Shown in pieces: positions 18,012 to 56,316 of a stretch of DNA of 64,000 nt (positions are counted from its first letter, which is position 1; every line of letters begins with the position of its first letter). The notes below the pieces were generated by a model. It did not search any database. It had not been told where the DNA came from and saw nothing but the letters and a program-made list of their open reading frames with translations. Origin of the DNA: a virus; the IMG/VR virus record IMGVR_UViG_3300036859_000864, positions 47,462 to 111,461 of that record; one strand, 5' to 3'. A program made the position numbers and the translations under genes.

Positions 18012-18706
18012 ACGGCTGGAACGGAGAGCGAGCTCATCGTCTCGAGGAACCGTTGCCCCTCACGAATCACGTGCTCGGCGAGCACCGGATGAATGACGGA
18101 CTTCCCACTCGAGGCCGATACCGGCTGCGTGCGAAAATACGTGTCGAGGCGTGTGCCGGCCTTGAGACCGAGATTGATGTAGTCCTGCGTGAGCGCGTGG
18201 CATCCGCCTTTCAGATTGTAGAATTCGCTGACGATCCCTTGGGCGTCGGCGACGAGAGAGGTCGCAGAAGGATCGAGGAGATGCGCGGCGAACTCGGCGT
18301 GCTCACGCATGAACGTGATGTTCTGACAGTACGTGAGCTCGGCCGGAAGGCCGCCCTCCCAAACACGCGCGACGAAGTAGATGAGCTCACGCAGCGTGTG
18401 ATCGATGAACAACGGGAAGAGCCATCCCATCCACTTGCCGGATTTTTGGAGATCGAGCACTTCTTGCGTGAAGGAGGCCAGGTTCTTCGTAGGCTCCGAA
18501 ACGATCGCCTTCGCCGCGTCGAGACCTTGCGACTTCGTGAGCCACGCCCGTGCGTGCTCCCAGTTCTCGTGGAGCGCAGCGGCTCGAGTCTTGTACGGTT
18601 CGACCTCCAATCCGAGGTTCAAGAACAGCGCGTGCTCGGAGAGCTGGCGCGACCAAAATATGATGTCTCCTAGCGGATCCAATGACGGCATGGGTCTCCT
18701 ACTCAA
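18008..18706 (-). CDS. DUF2935-like four-helix (ferritin-like) protein
   Basis: Two repeats: FWSRQLSEHALFL...DHTLRE and FMREHAEF..HLLDP...LAEHVIRE. Confidence 0.75.
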   Translation of the reverse strand: MSRRPMPSLDPLGDIIFWSRQLSEHALFLNLGLEVEPYKTRAAALHENWEHARAWLTKSQGLDAAKAIVSEPTKNLASFTQEVLDLQKSGKWMGWLFPLFIDHTLRELIYFVARVWEGGLPAELTYCQNITFMREHAEFAAHLLDPSATSLVADAQGIVSEFYNLKGGCHALTQDYINLGLKAGTRLDTYFRTQPVSASSGKSVIHPVLAEHVIREGQRFLETMSSLSVPAV

Positions 18707-19127
18707 GCCCGACCACGACGATGGCCGGGAACTCTGTCGCCTTCAAGTTGTAGAGCGCGACGAAGCGGTGGGCCCCCTCGATGATGAAGGGCCCCTTCTC
18801 GTCGACGCCGATGATCAGCGGGTTGATCTCTCGAGATTCTTCGATCGCGCCAGAGAGCCGCTCGCTTCGCGCGAAGTCGTCGGCGGCGTAGAACACGGAT
18901 CTCGGGCCGCCGAAGTCGGACATCGGTACGACGCGCACACCGGGGAGCGTTTCCGACTCGGCCATGTACCCGTCGATCGAGCTGAGGTTCGGTACGTGAT
19001 CTCGAACCGTCAGGCCGCCGACGACGTCGCCGGCGACCGGGTACCGCGCGCTTGTGCTCGCGATCAGGCCCTCGAGCGACGAGTCGGCGAGCGCGAGTGG
19101 CGCCGCGCCGACCCTGCGGCTTTTGGG
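18699..19127 (-). CDS. ParB/Srx-like domain, probably expressed as a -1 frameshift extension of 19064..20422
   Basis: INPLII.....FIIEGAHRFVAL; frame stays open and coding-like (YPVAGDVVGGLTVRDHVPNLSSI) upstream of ATG 18965 with no ATG/GTG/TTG start. Confidence 0.6.
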   Translation of the reverse strand, partial: PKSRRVGAAPLALADSSLEGLIASTSARYPVAGDVVGGLTVRDHVPNLSSIDGYMAESETLPGVRVVPMSDFGGPRSVFYAADDFARSERLSGAIEESREINPLIIGVDEKGPFIIEGAHRFVALYNLKATEFPAIVVVGLE

Positions 19128-20422
19128 TGGCGACGACTCGACTCGTGCACGCCGGTACCGTTCCTAGCCGCTGCGACGCGCTCGGCGATCTCTCGGTCGC
19201 GGGCGCGTGTGAAGTTGCCTGTCCAGGCCGCCCAAGGGCGCCCCTGAGGCTTGAAGATGTCTACTTGCAACACCGAGTTGCCGGGCTCCCCGGGATGGTG
19301 GACGACCCAAGTTTCGGTCGATGCGTTCAACGTCTTGCTGGGAACGCCAACCCTCAATCGTCGCGCCTCCAAGCCGCCGTCGATGGTGAGCGTCGTCGGT
19401 CCGGAGGCGGGCGCGCCACGACGCGCTTCGCTCGCATGTGACGCAACGTCAGGCACGATTTTCACAGTGTACCCGCGTCCGGTCAGTTCGACTGCGATCT
19501 TGTCCGCTTTCTCGCGCGGGTACGATCGACGGTTCAGCCATCGGATCGGTTGGCCGGTGTCGACGTTGATGATCTTGAACAATGATCCTCTACGAGGCGC
19601 AGCGACCACACCTCGACGCGCTTCGCCGACGCCCCCGCCGCGCATCTCCTGTTTGATCTGCAAGAGCTCGTCCGCGAGCCAATCGCGCGTCTTCGGATCT
19701 TGCAAGGCGCCTTTGAAACCGATCCAAAACTCACGCACCGTCTCGCGTCCGCCTGTCGCCGTCCCGGGCCCGAAAACGCCCCCAGCCAGATCGAGGATGT
19801 CGTTATCGCCGAGGCCCCGCTCCGTGTCCCACACGAGCTGTTGAAGCATGTTTTTCGCGATCACCGTCGCGTCTGACTTCGTCTCGAGCGGGAGCATCTG
19901 AGACGGATCCGCGCGTTCTGCTTCGAGCATCTGCTCGCGGACCCAGTCCATGAAGTATCCGCCTTGGAGTTGATCGTTGGCGTACTGCTCACCGGCGGCT
20001 TCGGCGTTGGGGGCGTCGCCCGTCTCACGTGCGGTCGGAACTCTACGTTTGATCGGCACAGTCGACTCGCCGTAGTAGCGAAACGTCTTTCGCCCCCCAC
20101 CGATATCCACTTCGACGTTACGGTATCCGCGTTGGTCGCTATCGGACACAGAGACTACGGTAGCTTCTCCGGATTTGTCGTAGATGACGTCTCCGACGCG
20201 AAGATCATCCACGTAAATATGCTGATCTCGGCGGCGATCTCTCTTCGCGTTTTCTCGTGTTGTCTTTCGAGTCATCGTGCTCTCCTTCTCGTGTCCTTGG
20301 TAGCCGTGTGAGTAGGCCGCCCGTCCTTGCTTCTCGGCCTTCTGGCGTGCGCCGGGGCCGCAGTAAACCTTCCCGTGGGAGCCCCACTGGTAGCAACCGC
20401 GGCCTCTAGAGTGGACGGGCAT
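19064..20422 (-). CDS. modular multi-domain protein with Arg-rich linkers
   Basis: N-terminal YQWG..GK.Y.G..A..KA..QG module, SH3-like module and further small domains separated by TARE, VGEARRGVVAAPRR, ASEARR, VHESSRR. Confidence 0.75.
   Translation of the reverse strand: MPVHSRGRGCYQWGSHGKVYCGPGARQKAEKQGRAAYSHGYQGHEKESTMTRKTTRENAKRDRRRDQHIYVDDLRVGDVIYDKSGEATVVSVSDSDQRGYRNVEVDIGGGRKTFRYYGESTVPIKRRVPTARETGDAPNAEAAGEQYANDQLQGGYFMDWVREQMLEAERADPSQMLPLETKSDATVIAKNMLQQLVWDTERGLGDNDILDLAGGVFGPGTATGGRETVREFWIGFKGALQDPKTRDWLADELLQIKQEMRGGGVGEARRGVVAAPRRGSLFKIINVDTGQPIRWLNRRSYPREKADKIAVELTGRGYTVKIVPDVASHASEARRGAPASGPTTLTIDGGLEARRLRVGVPSKTLNASTETWVVHHPGEPGNSVLQVDIFKPQGRPWAAWTGNFTRARDREIAERVAAARNGTGVHESSRRHPKAAGSARRHSRSPTRRSRA
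19081..19127 (-). other. candidate -1 programmed ribosomal frameshift signal
   Basis: In-frame C_CCA_AAA heptamer (19127-19121), 6-nt spacer, 9-bp stem GGGUCGGCG/CGCCGACUC. Confidence 0.6.
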
Positions 20423-20426
20423 AGTC

Positions 20427-21563
20427 CTACCGTCTTCGTGTCGATCGTCGAGCGTTCGGATTGTGCGCGCTGCGCGTCGGGCGCGGTGCCTCGTCCATGC
20501 GCGCGCCTTTGATGCGCGAGCCGCGCGGGTAAAAACCCGCGTTCTTGCCGCGGGCGAGGTCGGTCTGCGCCCGCTCGATTGTCGGAGCCGTGATGTGCGA
20601 GATCACCCGACCGTCTGGGTTCACGACCTCGAACTGTTTCCCGTGCCCCGATTCGCGCGCTCTAGGAGGCGCCTGACGGCCGCCGGAGGGCACGAAACGA
20701 ACGACCCCCCGAACTCGCTCGGCCTCGGTCTTCGCGTCCCCGTAGCTCTTGAACGGGCCGGCGATGACGCGGTTGTGGTTGTCGAGGGCCTCGTAGTCTC
20801 GGACGGCATGGCGCCGAGGGGCTCCTCGCCGGGCTTCGGTGTCTCCAGGGAGGTACATGGCGTTCCGAGGAAGCTGGGCGATGATGCTGCGCGCACCAGG
20901 CCCCTGCGCGTGCCAGTAGCCTTCTTTTTGCCAGACGGTGGCCACGTAGTATCCGTTGTCCGGACACGGGAAGTAGATCCGCGTGTTGGCACCGGCGCCC
21001 GATACATGCGTGGCGCCGTCGACGGTGGCCGCATGCTCGATGAGATCTTGGAGCGTGCCGAAGTCAGAGACACGGTGAGTACGCGACGCTGAACGGCGCG
21101 GGGCTGCGACGACGCCACGGCGCCGACTCTCGCCCACGTGCGCGTCCAGAGGCGACCCGTAGATGAGTGTCTCACCGTCCTCGTCCGGATCGCCGACGTA
21201 CAGATCGAACTCGCCGTACTCGTGGGCGCCGTCTGTCAGCTTGGTCGCGTCCGGCTCGGGCCAGTCGCCGTCCCAAAAGCCGGCGCCGGCGCCGTTGCGC
21301 GTCAGCCAGAAGTCATGACCGGCTAGCTCGAGGTTGCCTCCGATGAGCTCTCCGAAACGCTCTTGGAAGGAAGCACAGTCGGCGATCATCTTGTCGCGTG
21401 TCGCGTCGTCGATGTCTCCGACGTCGTAGTTCTTGTCGAGCGGCTCGCCCCCCTGATCGTCCGAGTTGTCCGAGCTCGCCCAGAGGGCCGTTTCGAAGTA
21501 CGCGCGGGTGAAAGAATCCATGCGCTGGGGCGCACGGGCGGTGTGTCGTCTGCGAGCGGCCAT
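20427..21563 (-). CDS. modular multi-domain protein with Arg-rich linkers
   Basis: Acidic domain with AGHDFWLTRNGAGAGFWD motif (seen in phage hypotheticals), then small domains separated by VGESRRRGVVAAPRR, TEARRGAPRR, ARES, MDEAPR. Confidence 0.75.
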   Translation of the reverse strand: MAARRRHTARAPQRMDSFTRAYFETALWASSDNSDDQGGEPLDKNYDVGDIDDATRDKMIADCASFQERFGELIGGNLELAGHDFWLTRNGAGAGFWDGDWPEPDATKLTDGAHEYGEFDLYVGDPDEDGETLIYGSPLDAHVGESRRRGVVAAPRRSASRTHRVSDFGTLQDLIEHAATVDGATHVSGAGANTRIYFPCPDNGYYVATVWQKEGYWHAQGPGARSIIAQLPRNAMYLPGDTEARRGAPRRHAVRDYEALDNHNRVIAGPFKSYGDAKTEAERVRGVVRFVPSGGRQAPPRARESGHGKQFEVVNPDGRVISHITAPTIERAQTDLARGKNAGFYPRGSRIKGARMDEAPRPTRSAHNPNARRSTRRR

Positions 21564-22228
21564 TAGCGTCTCCTCTTGGAGGTTCTGAGCGCAGTTTTCC
21601 TACGCGCGATGCGCTTGCTTCGTTGCGCGTCGGTTTGGGTCAACCGATCGATGTACGACTTGGCGACGATGATCGCCTTCGTTTCAGTGCCGCCGTATCC
21701 GACCTGTTCGGCTTCGACGCCGGTAGCTCCGTTTTCGGATTCGTACGGGCTGTAGACGACGGCGGCGAAGTACCCCTTCTCGCCCTGATGGGGGCGTTCT
21801 TTGGGAGGTACTGGATCGTGATAGACCTCGAATTTGATACCCTTGTACTCACCCGTGTGTTGAAGCGATGCCTTCGGACCGAGCGCGCCGGTGACGAGCG
21901 TCGGAAGACTGGGGGCTTCCTCCTCTTCTTCGCTCATCAAACCGCGAACGAGCTCCTCGACATCTTGCTTGTCTTGGATGGCGGCGATCATGCGTCCGAG
22001 CTGGTCGAGTTCGTGCCACCCGATGCCCCCCAAAGGCTCGAAGCCCATGTCCTCGAGCTCCTCGCCGCCGGGCACGCTTGCGAGAAGTCGGAACACCGTC
22101 GTCGGGTAGTCGTTCGGACCGTGGTCGTAGTTCGGGAGCCACGACCTGAGCTCCGCGATCATGTCGGCGATCGGGGGGCGGGGTTTCGAGGTGTTCGCGT
22201 GCATTCTTCTTCGGGTTGCCATGGTCAT
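21563..22228 (-). CDS. two-domain protein with basic termini
   Basis: AAGGAGA RBS; start 22228 or 22222 (MATRRRMHAN...); basic C-tail. Confidence 0.65.
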   Translation of the reverse strand: MTMATRRRMHANTSKPRPPIADMIAELRSWLPNYDHGPNDYPTTVFRLLASVPGGEELEDMGFEPLGGIGWHELDQLGRMIAAIQDKQDVEELVRGLMSEEEEEAPSLPTLVTGALGPKASLQHTGEYKGIKFEVYHDPVPPKERPHQGEKGYFAAVVYSPYESENGATGVEAEQVGYGGTETKAIIVAKSYIDRLTQTDAQRSKRIARRKTALRTSKRRR

Positions 22229-23766
22229 CGTCTCCTTCGCGGGCTGCGCCGCTCTTGCATTCCGTCTTCGGGCCTCGAGCTCCACACGAGTTCACCGTCG
22301 CGTGTGATTACCGTCACGTAGTCCCCTTCGAACGTCGGGTCTCGGAGCAACTTCTGCGCGGCGCGGATTGCTGCTTGCTCATCGTTCAACGAGAACGTTT
22401 CGCCACCACCGCCGCCCAAACCTCCGACGATGGTTCCGTCGCTGTACGCCCCCTGCACGACGTAGTCGCCATCGTCGACATGGGCGTTCGAATCTTTCTT
22501 ACCCCAAATGGAGGCGTAACCGCTCGTTGAGCTCGCGATCTCATCGTTGCGGTCTTTCGGCCACCAGTCGATGCCCTGAGCGGCTTCCTTGACCGTTTCG
22601 ATCGGCAACTCCATATCGTGCGCTACGGCACGGATGGCGGAGTCGGGGCTGACGTGTTCTTCGGTGGTCGGTACCCTACCCCCGAGATCGGTCAGCTCGT
22701 AGCCGTCCTTCTCGAGGTCGGCCTCTACGCCGGACTCGGTTCGCTCGCTCTCCAGATCACCGTTGACGGCCACGGCGTCTCCGAACGAAGCGACACCGAC
22801 GAGCGAATCTGAATCGAAGCCATCTCGAGCGGCGTCGTCCGCGTGCTGATCGCCGATCGTGCTCCACGTCTGCGCAGCGCCGATGTCGGCCATTTCCTCG
22901 ACTTTCTTTTCGAGGTTGCTTCGGATGTCGCTGTACCCTAGGACGTCGTCCTTGAACGATTCGTCTTCGTCTGCGAGGTACTCGCGGAGTGTTGCGGTCG
23001 CGCCGCTCGACCACTTCACTTCGTGATCGGGAAGATCTCCAGACCAGCCGGAAGGCCCCTCGTCGACACCAGTGCCGTAGTCCATGAGCGCGCTCGCGAT
23101 CGTGAGCGCGCGCTGAGTTGGTGTGAGATCCTCGAGCTGGTTGTGATCCATCCCGATGAAGCTCATGACGTTCGAGATGTTCTCCTTGTTCGTGAGATCG
23201 TCGAGATCGTAGTACGCCTCGCGGGTCCAAAACGGGAAGCCGGCTTCGGCCGCTTCCGTGTCGCCGACGTACTCACGCACCGGTTGGATCTTGAAGAGCT
23301 CGAGGGCTCTGCCGTCGCTCTTGGCGATGGTGCCGCCGTGCGCACCGGGATCCATGTCGCCGTCGATCTGCTCCCACATCGGCATGTCCGGGATCTGAAT
23401 TTCCAGCTTCCCGGGGATGTCAGGGAAGCCCGGCAGGCTCGGTTGGTGGCGGCTCCTCACCCTCCGTCCTTTTCCACGCTCGTGCATCTCCCCGCCGCTC
23501 GCCGCACCCTCGTCCGGGCGCGAGAACCGCTCGAGGTGCCCCGCGTCGGCCGTGAACGGATCGGCCGTCCTCGAGCGCCCGCGTCCCGTCGAGCCCGGAG
23601 GCCAGATGCGGATCGAGCGCGCCTTGGCCTCGTAGCTGTACGGCGTGCCGCTTCCGGGGCGCAGCATGGTCGGCCGTTGATCCATCGGTGCCTGGTAGTA
23701 GAGCGGGCCTCCCGTGCGCGCGTACGCGAGAACTTCAGGCCACGACTTGAAGGCTACAAGGTTCAT
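22225..23766 (-). CDS. modular acidic multi-domain protein
   Basis: 513 aa; domains bounded by EMHERGKGRR and GMQERRSPRRRR. Confidence 0.75.
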   Translation of the reverse strand: MNLVAFKSWPEVLAYARTGGPLYYQAPMDQRPTMLRPGSGTPYSYEAKARSIRIWPPGSTGRGRSRTADPFTADAGHLERFSRPDEGAASGGEMHERGKGRRVRSRHQPSLPGFPDIPGKLEIQIPDMPMWEQIDGDMDPGAHGGTIAKSDGRALELFKIQPVREYVGDTEAAEAGFPFWTREAYYDLDDLTNKENISNVMSFIGMDHNQLEDLTPTQRALTIASALMDYGTGVDEGPSGWSGDLPDHEVKWSSGATATLREYLADEDESFKDDVLGYSDIRSNLEKKVEEMADIGAAQTWSTIGDQHADDAARDGFDSDSLVGVASFGDAVAVNGDLESERTESGVEADLEKDGYELTDLGGRVPTTEEHVSPDSAIRAVAHDMELPIETVKEAAQGIDWWPKDRNDEIASSTSGYASIWGKKDSNAHVDDGDYVVQGAYSDGTIVGGLGGGGGETFSLNDEQAAIRAAQKLLRDPTFEGDYVTVITRDGELVWSSRPEDGMQERRSPRRRR

Positions 23767-24491
23767 CAGTTGTCTCTCCAGTAAACGAACCCGGACGGGG
23801 TCGTGTAGTAGTTGCTGTCGTAGCGCGCGAGGAAGTGCTCGGCGCCGTCTGTGTCGACGGCCTCCTCGGCCGCCGCTTCGATGTCGATGCCGGCGATCTC
23901 GATGGCCTTCGCGGCGGCCTCGTCACCGTAGATCTCTTCGAGATACTCGAGCGGGTCGTTGAGACGCTCTTCGGCGATCTTCGAGGCGACGTCGTCGATG
24001 TAGTCCTCGGGGTCGGGCATCTCGCCCTCGCTGTCTTCCTCGGGGATGCTGTCGAGGTAGCGCTCCGCCGTCTGCCAGAATTGACGGCTGGACATCTCGC
24101 GAAGATCGTCCTCCGCCATACTCTGCACGTCAGACTTGAGCTCTCGACGCAAGCGATCCTTGTCGATGTGGTTCTCGATGAAGTCCTTGTTGAAGTTCCC
24201 GGGCTCTTCTTCGAGATCTTGCGTGACAACTTCGATGGCCAGCTCGTACATCTTGTCGTGACTTTCCACGACATGCCATTCCTTGCCGCCCGTACGATCG
24301 CCTCGAAAATAAATTCGGTAGGCGGTGCCGTCGAAATCTCCGAAACCTGTAAGCTGAGTGCTCTCTTCGATTTTCAAATCGTACGGGTCGATGTCAAGGT
24401 GCTTCGCCACCTCGATGAGCACCGCGTCTTGATCGTCGAAGTCGACCTTGCGCGGGCGCCGCTTCGCTGCCTTTTTCTTTCGGGTAGCCAT
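23766..24491 (-). CDS. highly acidic protein (possible DNA mimic/anti-restriction) with basic N-terminal tag
   Basis: MATRKKKAAKRRPRK followed by D/E-rich body ending DG.EHFLARYD...GFVYWR. Confidence 0.6.
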   Translation of the reverse strand: MATRKKKAAKRRPRKVDFDDQDAVLIEVAKHLDIDPYDLKIEESTQLTGFGDFDGTAYRIYFRGDRTGGKEWHVVESHDKMYELAIEVVTQDLEEEPGNFNKDFIENHIDKDRLRRELKSDVQSMAEDDLREMSSRQFWQTAERYLDSIPEEDSEGEMPDPEDYIDDVASKIAEERLNDPLEYLEEIYGDEAAAKAIEIAGIDIEAAAEEAVDTDGAEHFLARYDSNYYTTPSGFVYWRDN

Positions 24492-24492
24492 C

Positions 24493-24921
24493 TCAGTCGT
24501 CCTCCTCTTCGAACTCGTCTTCGTCTTCATCGTCGTCATCGTCATCCTCATCGTCGTCGTCGACGTCCTCGAACTCAGATTCGATTTCCTTCCACGCCGC
24601 TTCGGCTTTCGTCTTGCCGTCGAATCCGGTGAACCAGTCGGCCTCAACGATGCCATCTTCACGTTCGCAGAGAATCACCACCGAGGTGTCATCGAGCAGA
24701 GCGCCCTCCGCGCCGGTGAGCTGATCCTTCTCCTCTTTCGCGATCTCGTTGATGCGATCGACGACGTCAGGAGTGATTTCTACGAAACCGTACCAGCCGT
24801 CACCTTCGGAGCCTTCCTCCCGATCGGCGCCGCCATCGAGCGTCAACTCGTAGACGTAGCTGTCGATGATTTTGATGAACTTGCCGGGCCCGTACGAACG
24901 AATTCCTGTTTTGATCGGCAT
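24493..24921 (-). CDS. acidic protein with poly-D/E tail
   Basis: TGATG coupling at 24921; GPGKF...DGWYG. Confidence 0.6.
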   Translation of the reverse strand: MPIKTGIRSYGPGKFIKIIDSYVYELTLDGGADREEGSEGDGWYGFVEITPDVVDRINEIAKEEKDQLTGAEGALLDDTSVVILCEREDGIVEADWFTGFDGKTKAEAAWKEIESEFEDVDDDDEDDDDDDEDEDEFEEEDD

Positions 24922-25304
24922 CACTTTCTCCATTCGATCCAAGCTCGATCGATCTCGAGCGGTAACTGTTCGGTGGATACGCCCACCGTCTTGAGAACTC
25001 CCCGTAGAACGCCCCACTCTTGATCGATGATTTCGTCAAGATACTCGTCTTCCGAGTCGCTCTCGATAGCCCCTACGCCGGCGCTCGTGAGCGTCTGAGG
25101 GACTCCTTCGATGGCAACCTCGGCCTCGGCGTAGACGCGCATGAAGTCGAACTCATCGCGCTCGTAGGCGGCAAGGCCGTCCTCGTTCAAGTACGAGGTG
25201 TCCGGGCTCGAGTCCGGCGTGAAGATCACGCGCACGGCGCGCAGCTCCGCACGTGGCCTGCGTGAGGCAGCCTCGACGACGCGGCGTCGCGGGGGAGAGC
25301 TCAT
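24921..25304 (-). CDS. acidic protein with Arg-rich N-terminal tag
   Basis: MSSPPRRRVVEAASRRPR then acidic domain. Confidence 0.6.
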   Translation of the reverse strand: MSSPPRRRVVEAASRRPRAELRAVRVIFTPDSSPDTSYLNEDGLAAYERDEFDFMRVYAEAEVAIEGVPQTLTSAGVGAIESDSEDEYLDEIIDQEWGVLRGVLKTVGVSTEQLPLEIDRAWIEWRK

Positions 25305-54990: not shown

Positions 54991-56316
54991 ATGGGAGCCA
55001 GGAACATCGTCGGTCGGCAGATTCACAAGTTCGGTGACGCGCAGGACAAGGTCAAGCGCATGCAATTCGGTCTCGGAGTGGATCCGAACAGCGGAGCGCT
55101 CGCGGCAGACGCCTCGGGCAAGTGCCTCCGTTGCTCCTTCGGGAACATCCCCGTGATCGAGGAGGTCGTCTGGACGATCCCGCTCCCCCTCACGGCCACC
55201 GAGGCGCTCGCAACGCTCGGTGACACGGTGAACCTTCTCTCGGGCAGCTCCAGCGTGCCCGGCGTCGCGTCGATCGACTCGACGTTCCTCATCAACGGCA
55301 TTCTCCAGACGGACATTCTGGCGCAGGGCATCGGCGTGCACGTGTTCTGCGAGCCGATGAGCTTCTCGACCATCGGCAACGCCTTCGTGGCGCCCGAGAC
55401 GACGGTGGCTCCTCCTCCGTCGCCCGACGTGTTCACCAACAACGACGTGACCTCGCGCGCGATGAGCACGCAGGTCGACGCGACCGCGTCGAACTTCAGC
55501 CCGGCCGTGTTCGAGTTCGGTGCCGACGTTTGGCGCGCGGGCTGGAACTTCATCAACGCCTACCAGTTTCAGTGGAAGACCTCGCAGCGCGAGCTCGTCC
55601 TCAACGAGCTGGCGGCGGACGTCTCGTACTTCGGCTCCTTCGCGGACGCCGAGGCGAGCGGCACGAGCGAAGTCGCCATCATCGAGTTCGTCGCGACGGT
55701 CAACGCGATCTACCGGTCGAAGGGCTCGAATACGATCTTCCTGCCCGTCAACTTCCGGCGCGTGGGTTCCGTCAACAGCACCAGCGCGACGGTCAACGTC
55801 GGCGTGTTCCACCCGACGCGCGATTTCGATCTCGCGCCGGTCACCTGGGGCGGTCTTCGGTGGCAGGGGTACGGCTGCCGCGGGCAGATGTACCGGCCGA
55901 TCGAGAGCCCGTGCTTCCTCGAGCGCGGTATCCCCATCGGGATGCTCTTCGTCGTGCAGGACGCCGTGCACCAGGCGCTCATGCTCCAGGCCGTCACCAT
56001 CAACAACGAGCCCCTCGGCGTGAACGTCAGCGTGGACGAGAACTTCTCGGACGCCTCGGCCGTCATCCCGACGCCGGCGACCCCCGGTACGCCCACGGCG
56101 GGCGCCATCGTGGTCGGCGGCAACAACACGATGCTGGAGCAGACGCTCGATGCGACTCCGGTGCTCGTGACGCAGTCGGTGAACACCTCTCGGCAGGTGT
56201 TCAAGGGCGGCATCCTGAAACTCGCGATCAAGATCAAGGGCTGGGAGATGCCCGGCGGCTGGAAGGACTACTGCAAGACCAACCTGCCGCAGATCATGTC
56301 GAACTCGGCTCCCTGA
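54991..56316 (+). CDS. putative major capsid protein (jelly-roll type)
   Basis: AGGAG RBS, strongly C/G-ending codons, beta-strand-rich, followed by a terminator; no HK97-type context. Confidence 0.55.
   Translation: MGARNIVGRQIHKFGDAQDKVKRMQFGLGVDPNSGALAADASGKCLRCSFGNIPVIEEVVWTIPLPLTATEALATLGDTVNLLSGSSSVPGVASIDSTFLINGILQTDILAQGIGVHVFCEPMSFSTIGNAFVAPETTVAPPPSPDVFTNNDVTSRAMSTQVDATASNFSPAVFEFGADVWRAGWNFINAYQFQWKTSQRELVLNELAADVSYFGSFADAEASGTSEVAIIEFVATVNAIYRSKGSNTIFLPVNFRRVGSVNSTSATVNVGVFHPTRDFDLAPVTWGGLRWQGYGCRGQMYRPIESPCFLERGIPIGMLFVVQDAVHQALMLQAVTINNEPLGVNVSVDENFSDASAVIPTPATPGTPTAGAIVVGGNNTMLEQTLDATPVLVTQSVNTSRQVFKGGILKLAIKIKGWEMPGGWKDYCKTNLPQIMSNSAP

What the first reader, a model, noticed from the sequence alone, without database searches (positions are those of the whole stretch)
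19064..19127. Canonical -1 ribosomal frameshift signal adding a ParB-like domain to a modular protein
Seen: near the end of 19064..20422 the minus strand reads caC CCA AAA gcc. This is an in-frame X_XXY_YYZ heptamer (19127-19121), followed by a 6-nt spacer and a 9-bp stem (19114-19106 pairing 19089-19081). The -1 frame opens after a TAG at ~19165, has no ATG/GTG/TTG until 18965 (inside the apparent domain), and reads ...PKSRRVGAAPLAL...YPVAGDVVGGLTVRDHVPNLSSI...EGAHRF. It therefore resumes with the same RRxxAAP linker and then a ParB/Srx-like domain. The 0-frame ends in a basic tail like its neighbours. Inference: two isoforms are made at a fixed ratio, outside the usual tail-chaperone or capsid contexts of phage frameshifting.
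Basis: partly seen in the sequence, partly recalled or inferred. Interest (0 to 1): 0.75.

Follow-up and report, generated by a model that had tools for sequence, protein, structure and literature searches.

The report
Conserved frameshift signal in viral modular protein
A gene of an uncultivated 111-kb bacterial virus very probably makes two proteins from one message, because some ribosomes slip back one base at a conserved signal and add a ParB-like DNA-binding-type domain; eleven viral contigs keep the same signal, so it is a real but mechanistically textbook case of programmed frameshifting in a new gene family.

Summary
On the minus strand, the 452-codon ORF 20422..19064 contains C_CCA_AAA (19127-19121) in the zero-frame phase. 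A predicted hairpin starts 6-7 nt downstream. The -1 frame is open from 19163 to 18702 and has no ATG/GTG/TTG before 18965.

This is not an assembly error. The same cassette (heptamer, 7-nt spacer, 8-bp stem) occurs in 11 distinct viral contigs. Their flanks have diverged to about 53% identity, while the 22-nt core stays at about 82%. In every case a long zero-frame ORF ends 9-23 codons later in a basic tail (PKAKRSxRRRR*), and the -1 frame continues (PKSQxVGA..LTD) into a folded domain. That domain is ParB/Srx-like in five contigs, winged-helix in three plus a truncated copy in a fourth, and unknown in two.

Two viruses of the same group lack the cassette and encode the winged-helix extension fused in frame.

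The window's extension is a 16-residue linker plus a ParB/Srx-fold domain (AlphaFold pLDDT 91). The fold begins about 38 residues before the Met at 18965.

Verdict: conserved programmed -1 frameshift giving 452-aa and 574-aa isoforms (confidence about 0.88). It is a new member of a known mechanism, found in polyvalent-type modular proteins rather than tail or capsid genes. Ratio and function are untested. The scan holds no note of this cassette on other DNA.

The parts
19064..20422 (-). Zero-frame ORF (452 aa). It has an N-terminal leader MPVHSRGRGCYQWGSHGKVYCG.., several small modules joined by x-E-A-R-R-G linkers, and a basic C-terminal tail. This is the short isoform.
   Evidence: The modules are shared with relatives (alignment A5). 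No Pfam, PHROG or NCBIfam family was found.
19121..19127 (-). Slippery heptamer C_CCA_AAA in zero-frame phase. P-site tRNA-Pro shifts CCA to CCC and A-site tRNA-Lys shifts AAA to AAA.
   Evidence: It is identical in sequence and phase in 11 contigs. The codon before it varies (His, Ser, Thr, Arg, Pro, Val) but always ends in C. CCA is the rarest Pro codon here (8.7%) and AAA makes up 31% of Lys codons.
19114..19120 (-). 7-nt spacer (GCCGCAG) before the conserved 8-bp stem, or 6 nt if the extra G19114-C19081 pair forms.
   Evidence: The spacer is 7 nt in all 11 instances.
19081..19114 (-). Predicted stimulatory hairpin. The 5' arm GGTCGGCG is at 19113-19106, the loop is 16 nt with an inner helix, and the 3' arm CGCCGACT is at 19089-19082.
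   Evidence: RNAfold gives -28.1 kcal/mol. An 8/8 stem sits at this position in 10 of 10 instances, against 0.27% of background positions. In the model-fitted alignment 96.6% of cells are paired, against 17-59% in slid controls.
19064..19120 (-). Zero-frame basic tail AAGSARRHSRSPTRRSRA plus the TGA stop. It overlaps the -1 linker, so this stretch codes in two frames.
   Evidence: Relatives read PKAKRSxRRRR*. The tail stays rich in R/K where the hairpin loop nucleotides differ.
19080..19127 (-). -1 frame linker PKSRRVGAAPLALADS (residues 1-16 of the extension), predicted to be disordered.
   Evidence: pLDDT is 57-78. The linker is homologous to PKSQxVGA..LTD in relatives and to the in-frame linker ..APTLTD.. 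in L267/L268.
18702..19079 (-). ParB/Srx-fold domain (residues 17-142 of the extension) with an EGAHR motif in place of the ParB GERR motif. It is present only in the long, 574-aa isoform.
   Evidence: AlphaFold2 mean pLDDT 91.2, pTM 0.85. The domain family has 906 representative clusters, in which it stands alone or sits inside proteins of up to 5171 aa.
18699..18701 (-). Stop codon (TAG) of the -1 frame extension.
19164..19166 (-). TAG that closes the -1 frame 12 codons upstream of the heptamer. It limits where the -1 frame can be entered.

Best explanation
Gene 20422..19064 is a recoded gene. Most ribosomes read straight through C_CCA_AAA, unwind the hairpin and stop 18 sense codons later. 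This gives a 452-aa modular protein with a basic C-terminal tail.

A fraction of ribosomes pause with tRNA-Pro on CCA in the P site and tRNA-Lys on AAA in the A site, because the hairpin that begins 7 nt downstream sits at the mRNA entrance. Both tRNAs then re-pair one base back (CCC, AAA). Translation continues in the -1 frame through a 16-residue linker into a ParB/Srx-fold domain. The result is a 574-aa isoform, made of residues 1-434 plus 140 more.

The signal is a conserved, portable cassette embedded in the basic tail of a family of polyvalent-type modular proteins of one group of 75-111-kb uncultivated bacterial viruses. What follows it differs from virus to virus: a ParB-like domain, a winged-helix domain, or an unknown domain.

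Shown here: the anatomy, its conservation, the fold of the extension, and in-frame fused orthologues.

Inferred: that slippage occurs and at what efficiency; that both isoforms function; and that the extension binds DNA or nucleotides, replacing or supplementing a DNA-binding basic tail.
For: 1. The cassette is repeated. Heptamer, phase, 7-nt spacer and 8-bp stem are the same in 11 distinct contigs.
   - Nine of these were reached without using the DNA pattern: by protein homology, and by the upstream module.
   - The 22-nt core has 82% median identity, against 53% for 120-nt flanks on either side.
2. The codon before the heptamer encodes six different residues but always ends in C. CCA and AAA are minority codons in this genome.
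3. The -1 frame has no ATG/GTG/TTG from its upstream stop to at least 22 codons past the heptamer in 8 of 11 instances. In L021 and L026 it opens only 3 and 7 codons before the heptamer.
4. GC3 switches from the zero frame (0.73 against 0.59) upstream to the -1 frame (0.87 against 0.70) between the heptamer and Met55. Substitutions against relatives in that stretch fall mainly at third positions of the -1 frame.
5. Orthologous in-frame fusions exist.
   - L003/L004 encode the same leader and the same C-domain in one ORF.
   - L267/L268 encode the conserved module plus the same winged-helix domain that is a -1 extension in L019/L022, with no tail and no heptamer.
   - Their viruses belong to the same group and have no cassette.
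6. The extensions are real domains: ParB/Srx fold with pLDDT 91, and HTH_24 above Pfam's cut-off in L022.
7. The zero-frame tail stays basic while the loop nucleotides vary, so both frames look selected.
8. C_CC.A_AA.A is listed among the heptamers that shift at more than 0.1% in E. coli even without a stimulator, and stimulatory structures usually start 5-8 nt downstream (PMC4066793).
Against: - There is no direct evidence: no reads, no transcripts, no peptides.
- The host and its tRNA set are unknown.
- Formal covariation in the stem is weak. The model-fitted alignment shows only one-sided changes (G-C, G-U, A-U) and does not exceed shuffles. The stem nucleotides also encode conserved peptides in two frames, so their conservation alone does not prove an RNA role.
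- Single-sequence fold z-scores are modest, -1.1 to -2.3.
- Two of the eleven instances (L023, L030) were found only through a pattern that fixes the heptamer and the 5' arm. L030's upstream ORF is open for only 42 codons.
- No upstream Shine-Dalgarno-like stimulator is consistently present.
Confidence: 0.88

Rival explanations
1. Artefact or decay. A one-base indel in the C3A4 run, from sequencing, assembly or a real inactivating mutation, split a single fused ORF. The downstream domain is then either part of one ordinary protein or a dead remnant.
For: In-frame fusions of the same domains exist in relatives. Short homopolymers can collect errors. Reads could not be checked.
Against: Ten other independent assemblies need the same -1 shift at the same heptamer, while their flanks have diverged to about 53% identity. 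The zero-frame tail after the site is conserved and basic like the tails of unshifted neighbours. The downstream frame keeps a high GC3 (0.87) and substitutions biased to third positions, so it is not decaying.
Confidence: 0.03
2. Two separate genes. The ParB-like ORF is translated on its own, either from a non-canonical start codon or by termination-reinitiation after the zero-frame stop, or from Met 18965 as an 88-aa protein.
For: Gene callers have called stand-alone ORFs in relatives: P0002 from a GTG, and P0003 with a 39-residue upstream extension. Stand-alone versions of the domain, about 130 aa long, exist elsewhere.
Against: There is no ATG/GTG/TTG in the -1 frame before codon 55. Met55 lies inside the fold, after helix 18-28, strand 39-41 and helix 48-53. 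Homology in relatives begins at residues 10-29. The -1 linker directly after the heptamer is conserved (PKSQxVGA..LTD) and is in frame with the upstream module in L267/L268. L030's 133-codon extension has no canonical start in its first 60 codons.
Confidence: 0.05
3. The conserved 45 nt are mainly a DNA-level junction: a homology patch or recombination site at which downstream cargo domains are exchanged between viruses. The heptamer and stem would be by-products, and frameshifting would be negligible.
For: The cassette is an island of identity between unrelated upstream and downstream domains. Its distribution within one virus group is patchy.
Against: A recombination patch explains neither why the downstream domain always sits in the -1 frame without a start codon, nor why the heptamer keeps X_XXY_YYZ phase with rare codons. 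The model search found no inverted or second copy of the cassette in the window, so there is no invertible-segment layout. This reading is compatible with programmed frameshifting rather than an alternative to it.
Confidence: 0.04

Closest known systems
Frameshift-added C-terminal Ig-like domains on phage structural proteins (T3 capsid, Lactobacillus phage A2, Listeria phages A118/A500), as reviewed in PMC5009743
   Same: A fraction of ribosomes shifts near the 3' end of a gene and appends an extra folded domain. In some relatives the same kind of domain is fused in frame, and in others it is reached by frameshifting.
   Different: Here the carrier is not a capsid or tail protein. It is a modular, polyvalent-type protein beside replication genes. 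The appended domains are ParB/Srx and winged-helix, not Ig-like. A single conserved cassette of about 45 nt precedes different domains in different viruses.
IS911/IS3 orfAB and E. coli dnaX -1 frameshift cassettes
   Same: An X_XXA_AAN heptamer followed after 5-8 nt by a stem-loop, in bacteria. Frameshifting sets the ratio of a short and a long product (PMC4066793).
   Different: The heptamer is C_CCA_AAA, not A_AAA_AAG. There is no consistent upstream Shine-Dalgarno-like stimulator. In dnaX the shifted product is the shorter one, whereas here it is the longer one.
Phage lambda G/GT tail assembly chaperone frameshift
   Same: A conserved low-level -1 frameshift in a dsDNA virus of bacteria that yields a C-terminally extended second product (PMC5009743).
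   Different: There is no tape-measure or tail context. No tailed-phage structural PHROG hits were found among the proteins tested. Earlier unverified scan notes even suggest a tailless virion.
Polyvalent proteins of phages and conjugative elements (Iyer et al. 2017, PMC5512222)
   Same: Strings of small unrelated domains that include ParB/Srx-type domains. Close homologues of the window's C-domain are fused to ART-PolyVal (PF18760, above its cut-off) and to GNAT domains. The domain also occurs inside proteins of up to 5171 aa.
   Different: That paper never mentions frameshifting (0 occurrences). P0001's own modules match no described family. No zincin-like metallopeptidase (MPTase), MuF or portal linkage was seen.

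Membership tests
Programmed -1 ribosomal frameshift signal | X_XXY_YYZ heptamer in the zero-frame phase that allows both tRNAs to re-pair | tested here: met
   C_CCA_AAA at 19127-19121, in phase with the ATG at 20422. The phase is the same in all 11 contigs.
Programmed -1 ribosomal frameshift signal | Stable RNA structure starting 5-9 nt downstream | tested here: met
   A predicted hairpin starts 6-7 nt downstream in all 11 instances, at -18 to -32 kcal/mol per 55 nt. An 8/8 stem occurs at 0.27% of background positions. This is a prediction only, and covariation is weak.
Programmed -1 ribosomal frameshift signal | The -1 ORF overlaps the end of the zero-frame ORF, lacks its own start, and encodes a real protein | tested here: met
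   no start codons; coding signal in the -1 frame; folded domains.
Programmed -1 ribosomal frameshift signal | The signal is conserved in relatives while its flanks diverge, and fused orthologues exist | tested here: met
Programmed -1 ribosomal frameshift signal | Both products are detected, and the shift depends on the heptamer | not testable with these tools
   This needs a reporter assay or proteomics. No reads or RNA data could be obtained.
ParB/Srx superfamily (Pfam ParB_N, PF02195) | Sequence match to the family model | tested here: inconclusive
   The window's own sequence gives no Pfam hit at E <= 0.1 and a PHROG ParB-like hit at only E = 0.023. However, 28 of 39 homologues hit ParB_N (best 3.6e-7), and the family profile hits Noc/ParB structures at 2e-8.
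ParB/Srx superfamily (Pfam ParB_N, PF02195) | ParB/Srx alpha+beta fold | tested here: met
   The AlphaFold2 model has pLDDT 91. All leading Foldseek hits are Srx, Noc, ParB, PadC or SbnI, at probability 1.00 and E about 1e-3, with TM normalised by target length 0.5-0.7 for the Srx chains.
ParB/Srx superfamily (Pfam ParB_N, PF02195) | Conserved active-site arginine in the G-x-x-R box | tested here: met
   E117, G118, H120 and R121 are invariant in 39 homologues. They align to the GERR box of Noc.
Canonical chromosome or plasmid ParB (CTP-dependent clamp) | GERRxR CTP-binding motif plus HTH and dimerisation domains, with ParA and parS partners | tested here: not met
   The motif is EGAHR, which is Srx/DGHHR-like. 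The domain ends 21 residues later, so there is no HTH or C-terminal domain. No ParA was noted nearby.
Polyvalent proteins (Iyer et al. 2017) | Two to fifteen unrelated domains in one polypeptide, drawn from the recurrent polyvalent domain set | tested here: inconclusive
   A multi-module build is evident from the shared modules and linkers. Relatives combine the same C-domain with ART-PolyVal and GNAT domains. P0001's own N-terminal modules match no named family.
Polyvalent proteins (Iyer et al. 2017) | Delivered into the host with the DNA (packaged in the virion or transferred) | not testable with these tools
   This needs virion proteomics.
Tail assembly chaperone G/GT-type frameshift | Located just upstream of a tape-measure gene in a tail module | tested here: not met
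   The neighbours are a DUF2935 protein, other modular proteins, helicases and a methyltransferase.

The most novel reading that the evidence does not exclude
The 45-nt frameshift cassette is a portable adaptor. It is embedded in a basic C-terminal tail that several proteins of these viruses share; that tail may tether them to the genome for co-packaging. The cassette lets any downstream DNA-binding or effector domain be plugged in by recombination and be made at a fixed low stoichiometry. The virus would then load a small, tunable dose of variable cargo (ParB/Srx NTPase-nuclease-type or winged-helix domains) beside the bulk short form. That would be a recoding-based system for diversifying delivered proteins, in a possibly tailless, membrane-containing virus lineage.
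Probability: 0.2. Interest if true: 0.75.

Novelty: new member of a known kind. Interest (0 to 1): 0.52.

Why it matters
Annotated phage frameshifts are overwhelmingly in tail-chaperone genes: 2397 of 2476 in the SEA-PHAGES training set of PRFect (PMC10885494). This case adds a well-supported, conserved frameshift cassette in a different gene class, modular polyvalent-type proteins, and in an uncultivated group of large bacterial viruses.

Gene callers currently miss or mis-start the downstream ORF. P0002 and P0003 are called with spurious starts. The ParB-like and winged-helix domains are therefore annotated as orphan genes, and the true long isoform is absent from protein databases.

The one-cassette, many-extensions layout also gives a clean natural system for two questions: how recoding sets stoichiometry, and how cargo domains are swapped.

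Tried and rejected
It is a probable twelfth instance but is not counted.
- Bacterial genomes: the cassette pattern gave only chance matches among the 120 rows returned, for example inside an FtsA-like gene. No prophage or host was found.
- Phage GenBank records (INPHARED): no tblastn match to the extension.
- Function of the conserved upstream module: ESM Atlas, Pfam, PHROGs and NCBIfam gave nothing usable.
- Formal covariation test of the stem: the stem is paired in 96.6% of cells, but there are no two-sided changes in the model-fitted alignment and the score does not exceed shuffles. By hand-register, pair 5 is A-U in four contigs, G-C in two and G-U in four. I treat this as weak support only.
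- Invertible-segment idea: rejected, because there is no second or inverted cassette copy in the window.
- Transcriptional slippage: rejected on general knowledge, because runs of C3 and A4 are too short.
- Idea that the x-E|A-R-R linkers are protease cleavage sites: the motif recurs, but nothing here tests cleavage. It is left as speculation.

Full report
**What is in the window.** The window is the last 64 kb of a 111,461-bp IMG/VR virus record with direct terminal repeats. It has 62% G+C.

- On the minus strand, ORF 20422..19064 encodes a 452-aa protein (P0001).
- Near its end the sequence reads CAC CCA AAA GCC, so C_CCA_AAA (19127-19121) sits in X_XXY_YYZ phase.
- The zero frame continues for 18 sense codons (AAGSARRHSRSPTRRSRA) to a TGA stop.
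- The -1 frame is closed by TAG at 19166-19164. It then stays open to TAG at 18701-18699 and reads PKSRRVGAAPLALADSSLEGLIASTSARYPVAGD...IIEGAHRFVAL...VVVGLE.
- The first ATG/GTG/TTG in that frame is codon 55, at 18965.

On this window alone it is only suggestive. The heptamer occurs 6 times against 3.6 expected, and the fold z-score is only -1.8.

**The downstream ORF cannot stand alone.**

- A HMMER search of 1.84 billion representative proteins found 906 clusters with this domain. The match typically begins at residues 23-28 of the -1 product. The domain stands alone at about 130 aa, or sits inside proteins of up to 5171 aa.
- AlphaFold2 on a 39-sequence alignment gives mean pLDDT 91.2. Residues 1-16 are a low-confidence linker, and the fold starts with a helix at 18-28. 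Met55 lies in the middle of the fold.
- Between the heptamer and Met55, GC3 is 0.87 in the -1 frame against 0.70 in the zero frame. Upstream of the heptamer the zero frame leads, 0.73 against 0.59.
- Differences from relatives in that stretch concentrate at third positions of the -1 frame.

**The domain belongs to the ParB/Srx superfamily.** The window's sequence alone misses Pfam and gives only E = 0.02 against a PHROG ParB-like family.

- 28 of 39 homologues hit Pfam ParB_N.
- The family profile matches solved Noc/ParB N-domains at E = 2e-8.
- All leading Foldseek hits are sulfiredoxin, Noc, ParB, PadC or SbnI.
- The invariant box is E-G-x-H-R, which aligns to the ParB GERR box. It is the Srx/DGHHR flavour, not the CTP-clamp flavour, and there is no HTH or dimerisation domain.

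**The frameshift layout is conserved.**

- Protein-based searches recovered relatives of the C-domain.
- In the closest one (IMGVR_UViG_3300019880_000001, 85-90% identity), the P0001 orthologue ends ..TRSPKAKRSVRRRR*. The -1 frame reads ..LPKSQKVGAATALTD.., then an extra domain of about 240 aa, then the ParB-like domain, across an identical C_CCA_AAA.
- In a 1.4-kb metagenome contig (L015) the upstream domain is unrelated. The same heptamer, phase, basic tail (PKARRSAKPTRRR*) and -1 continuation are still present.
- A DNA pattern built from these three (CCCAAAAGC-N5-GGTCRGYG) found seven more viral contigs with the full layout and nine chance hits without it.
- A second pattern added an eleventh contig, L189, which has a different 5' arm.

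All eleven instances share these features:

| Feature | Finding |
|---|---|
| Zero-frame ORF upstream | open for 308-742 codons in eight; L015 and L189 reach a locus end; L030 is open for only 42 codons |
| Zero-frame tail | basic, 9-23 residues after Pro-Lys |
| -1 linker | PKS(Q/R)xV(G/S)..LTD |
| -1 extension | 49-358 codons |

The extensions are:

- ParB/Srx-like in five contigs (window, L011, L015, L030, L189);
- winged-helix in L019, L022 and L026, with Pfam HTH_24 above its cut-off in L022;
- a truncated winged-helix in L023;
- unknown in L021 and L029.

**Ascertainment.** The pattern fixes the heptamer and the 5' arm, so their invariance in pattern-found loci is partly circular. A pattern-free search using the conserved upstream module (LPLETK...DWLADELL) returned nine contigs. 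Seven of them are the cassette-bearing ones.

The other two (L267/L268) encode the module fused in frame, through a linker ..APTLTD.., to the same winged-helix domain that is a -1 extension in L019/L022. They have no basic tail and no heptamer.

A covariance model of the cassette finds nothing in those complete genomes or in that of L004. By a 441-aa protein at 77-87% identity they are nevertheless the same virus group as the window and three cassette-bearing genomes.

L003/L004 encode the P0001 leader plus another domain plus the ParB-like domain in one ORF. Fused orthologues of a split pair are the classical comparative signature of recoding.

**Signal anatomy.**

- The spacer is 7 nt in all instances.
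- The 5' arm is GGTC(A/G)G(C/T)G and the 3' arm is CGC(T/C)GACC, after a loop of 9-16 nt. This gives 8 of 8 pairs in 10 of 10 instances, against 0.27% of background positions.
- L189 uses GGCCGGT/ACCGGCC.
- In most instances the zero-frame TGA lies inside the 3' arm. The window and L030 have CGCCGAC there, so their tails run on a little longer.
- The 22-nt core has 82% median identity, between flanks at 53%.
- The codon before the heptamer encodes His, Ser, Thr, Arg, Pro or Val but always ends in C. CCA is 8.7% of Pro codons and AAA is 31% of Lys codons in this genome.
- No ATG/GTG/TTG lies in the -1 frame near the site in 8 of 11 instances.
- No consistent Shine-Dalgarno-like stimulator lies upstream.

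The formal covariation test is weak: 96.6% of cells pair, against 17-59% in slid controls, but the changes are one-sided. The same nucleotides also encode conserved peptides in two frames. I therefore count the hairpin as present and well placed, not as proven by covariation.

According to PMC4066793, C_CC.A_AA.A is among the heptamers that shift at more than 0.1% in E. coli without a stimulator. That paper also states that stimulatory structures usually start 5-8 nt downstream.

**Both isoforms look selected.** Where the loop nucleotides differ between viruses, the zero-frame reading stays R/K-rich (RRR, KRR, RKKR, PRRK). The -1 reading there is a variable Ala/Ser/Thr/Gln linker.

Basic C-termini are also found on unshifted neighbouring genes (..RRSTRRR..TSKRRR..SPRRRR). 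They occur on 8 of 155 crude gene calls against 1.4 expected.

**What the protein is.** P0001 has a leader (MPVHSRGRGCYQWGSHGKVYCG..) that is also seen on P0007, P0012 and L003. It then has several small modules joined by x-E-A-R-R-G linkers.

None of its modules matches Pfam, PHROGs, NCBIfam or an Atlas cluster. In relatives, the same modules and those of the neighbouring gene 20427..21563 are shuffled into single longer proteins.

Close homologues of the C-domain are fused to ART-PolyVal (PF18760, above its cut-off) and to GNAT domains. This is the domain vocabulary of the polyvalent proteins of Iyer et al. 2017 (PMC5512222). That paper describes ParB-type domains in such proteins but never mentions frameshifting.

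The local context is DUF2935, helicases and a methyltransferase, not tail or head genes. Earlier notes of this scan (unverified) read the virus as tailless and membrane-containing, with a protamine-like core protein. If that is right, a DNA-tethering role for the basic tails is attractive. Nothing here tests it.

**Mechanism, with odds.** I put about 0.88 on genuine programmed -1 frameshifting that yields 452-aa and 574-aa isoforms.

| Alternative | Odds |
|---|---|
| Independent initiation of the downstream ORF | about 0.05 |
| DNA-level junction with negligible shifting | about 0.04 |
| Artefact or pseudogene | about 0.03 |

Inferred but not shown:

- the efficiency of the shift;
- whether the short form's tail and the long form's domain both bind DNA;
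- whether the linkers are cleaved;
- whether either form is packaged into the virion.

**Novelty.** The mechanism is textbook. The nearest functional analogue is the frameshift-dependent addition of Ig-like domains to phage structural proteins (PMC5009743).

Three things are new:

- the gene class;
- the virus group;
- the finding that one conserved cassette fronts different extension domains, while sister genomes carry in-frame fusions.

Literature searches found no report of it. The scan's own index holds other phage frameshifts, but no look-alike of this cassette on other DNA.

Noticed in passing
L267:3474-4151 and L268:3474-4151: Two near-identical relatives encode the conserved LPLETK/DWLADELL module fused in frame to the winged-helix domain that is a -1 extension in L019/L022. 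They have no basic tail and no heptamer. The cassette has therefore been gained or lost within one virus group.
   Followed up: yes
P0006 (and L005:3-1082), P0008: Close homologues of the window's ParB-like domain carry an N-terminal ART-PolyVal ADP-ribosyltransferase domain (PF18760, 36.5 bits against a cut-off of 31.2) or two GNAT acetyltransferase domains. These are effector-type partners.
   Followed up: partly
L011:4921-5997: In the closest relative, the -1 extension holds an additional domain of about 240 aa, with no family match, between the linker and the ParB-like domain.
   Followed up: no
L030:8618-8815: This instance of the cassette has only 42 open zero-frame codons upstream, although they still contain a WLADTLL remnant of the conserved module. 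The upstream gene may be disrupted, or it may be shifted a second time.
   Followed up: no
window 19064-25304 (minus-strand gene cluster): Several co-directional genes end in Arg-rich tails (..RRSTRRR, ..TSKRRR, ..SPRRRR). The linker motif E-[AST]-[RK]-R occurs three times in P0001 and twice in its neighbour. Genome-wide, 8 of 155 crude gene calls have at least 4 R/K in their last 6 residues, against 1.4 expected.
   Followed up: partly
window 20291-20422 (minus strand): The N-terminal leader MPVHSRGRGCYQWGSHGKVYCGPGARQKAEKQGRAAYSHGY occurs once in this genome. It heads different domain combinations in relatives (L003, P0007, P0012). It has no family match.
   Followed up: partly
window 54991-56316 (plus strand): A 441-aa protein with very high GC3 (0.92) and no PHROG hit is 77-87% identical in five 80-96-kb relatives. 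It is useful as a marker of this virus group and is presumably a major structural protein.
   Followed up: partly
window 21272-21278 (plus strand): A second CCCAAAAGC lies antisense to gene 20427..21563. It has no frameshift layout and is a chance occurrence.
   Followed up: yes
L189 / L006 (IMGVR_UViG_3300031772_000013): This 75-kb record has the cassette in front of a different ParB/Srx-type domain (DGWHR motif). Elsewhere it also carries the window-type ParB-like domain fused in frame behind GNAT-like domains. It gave no match to the 441-aa marker protein.
   Followed up: partly
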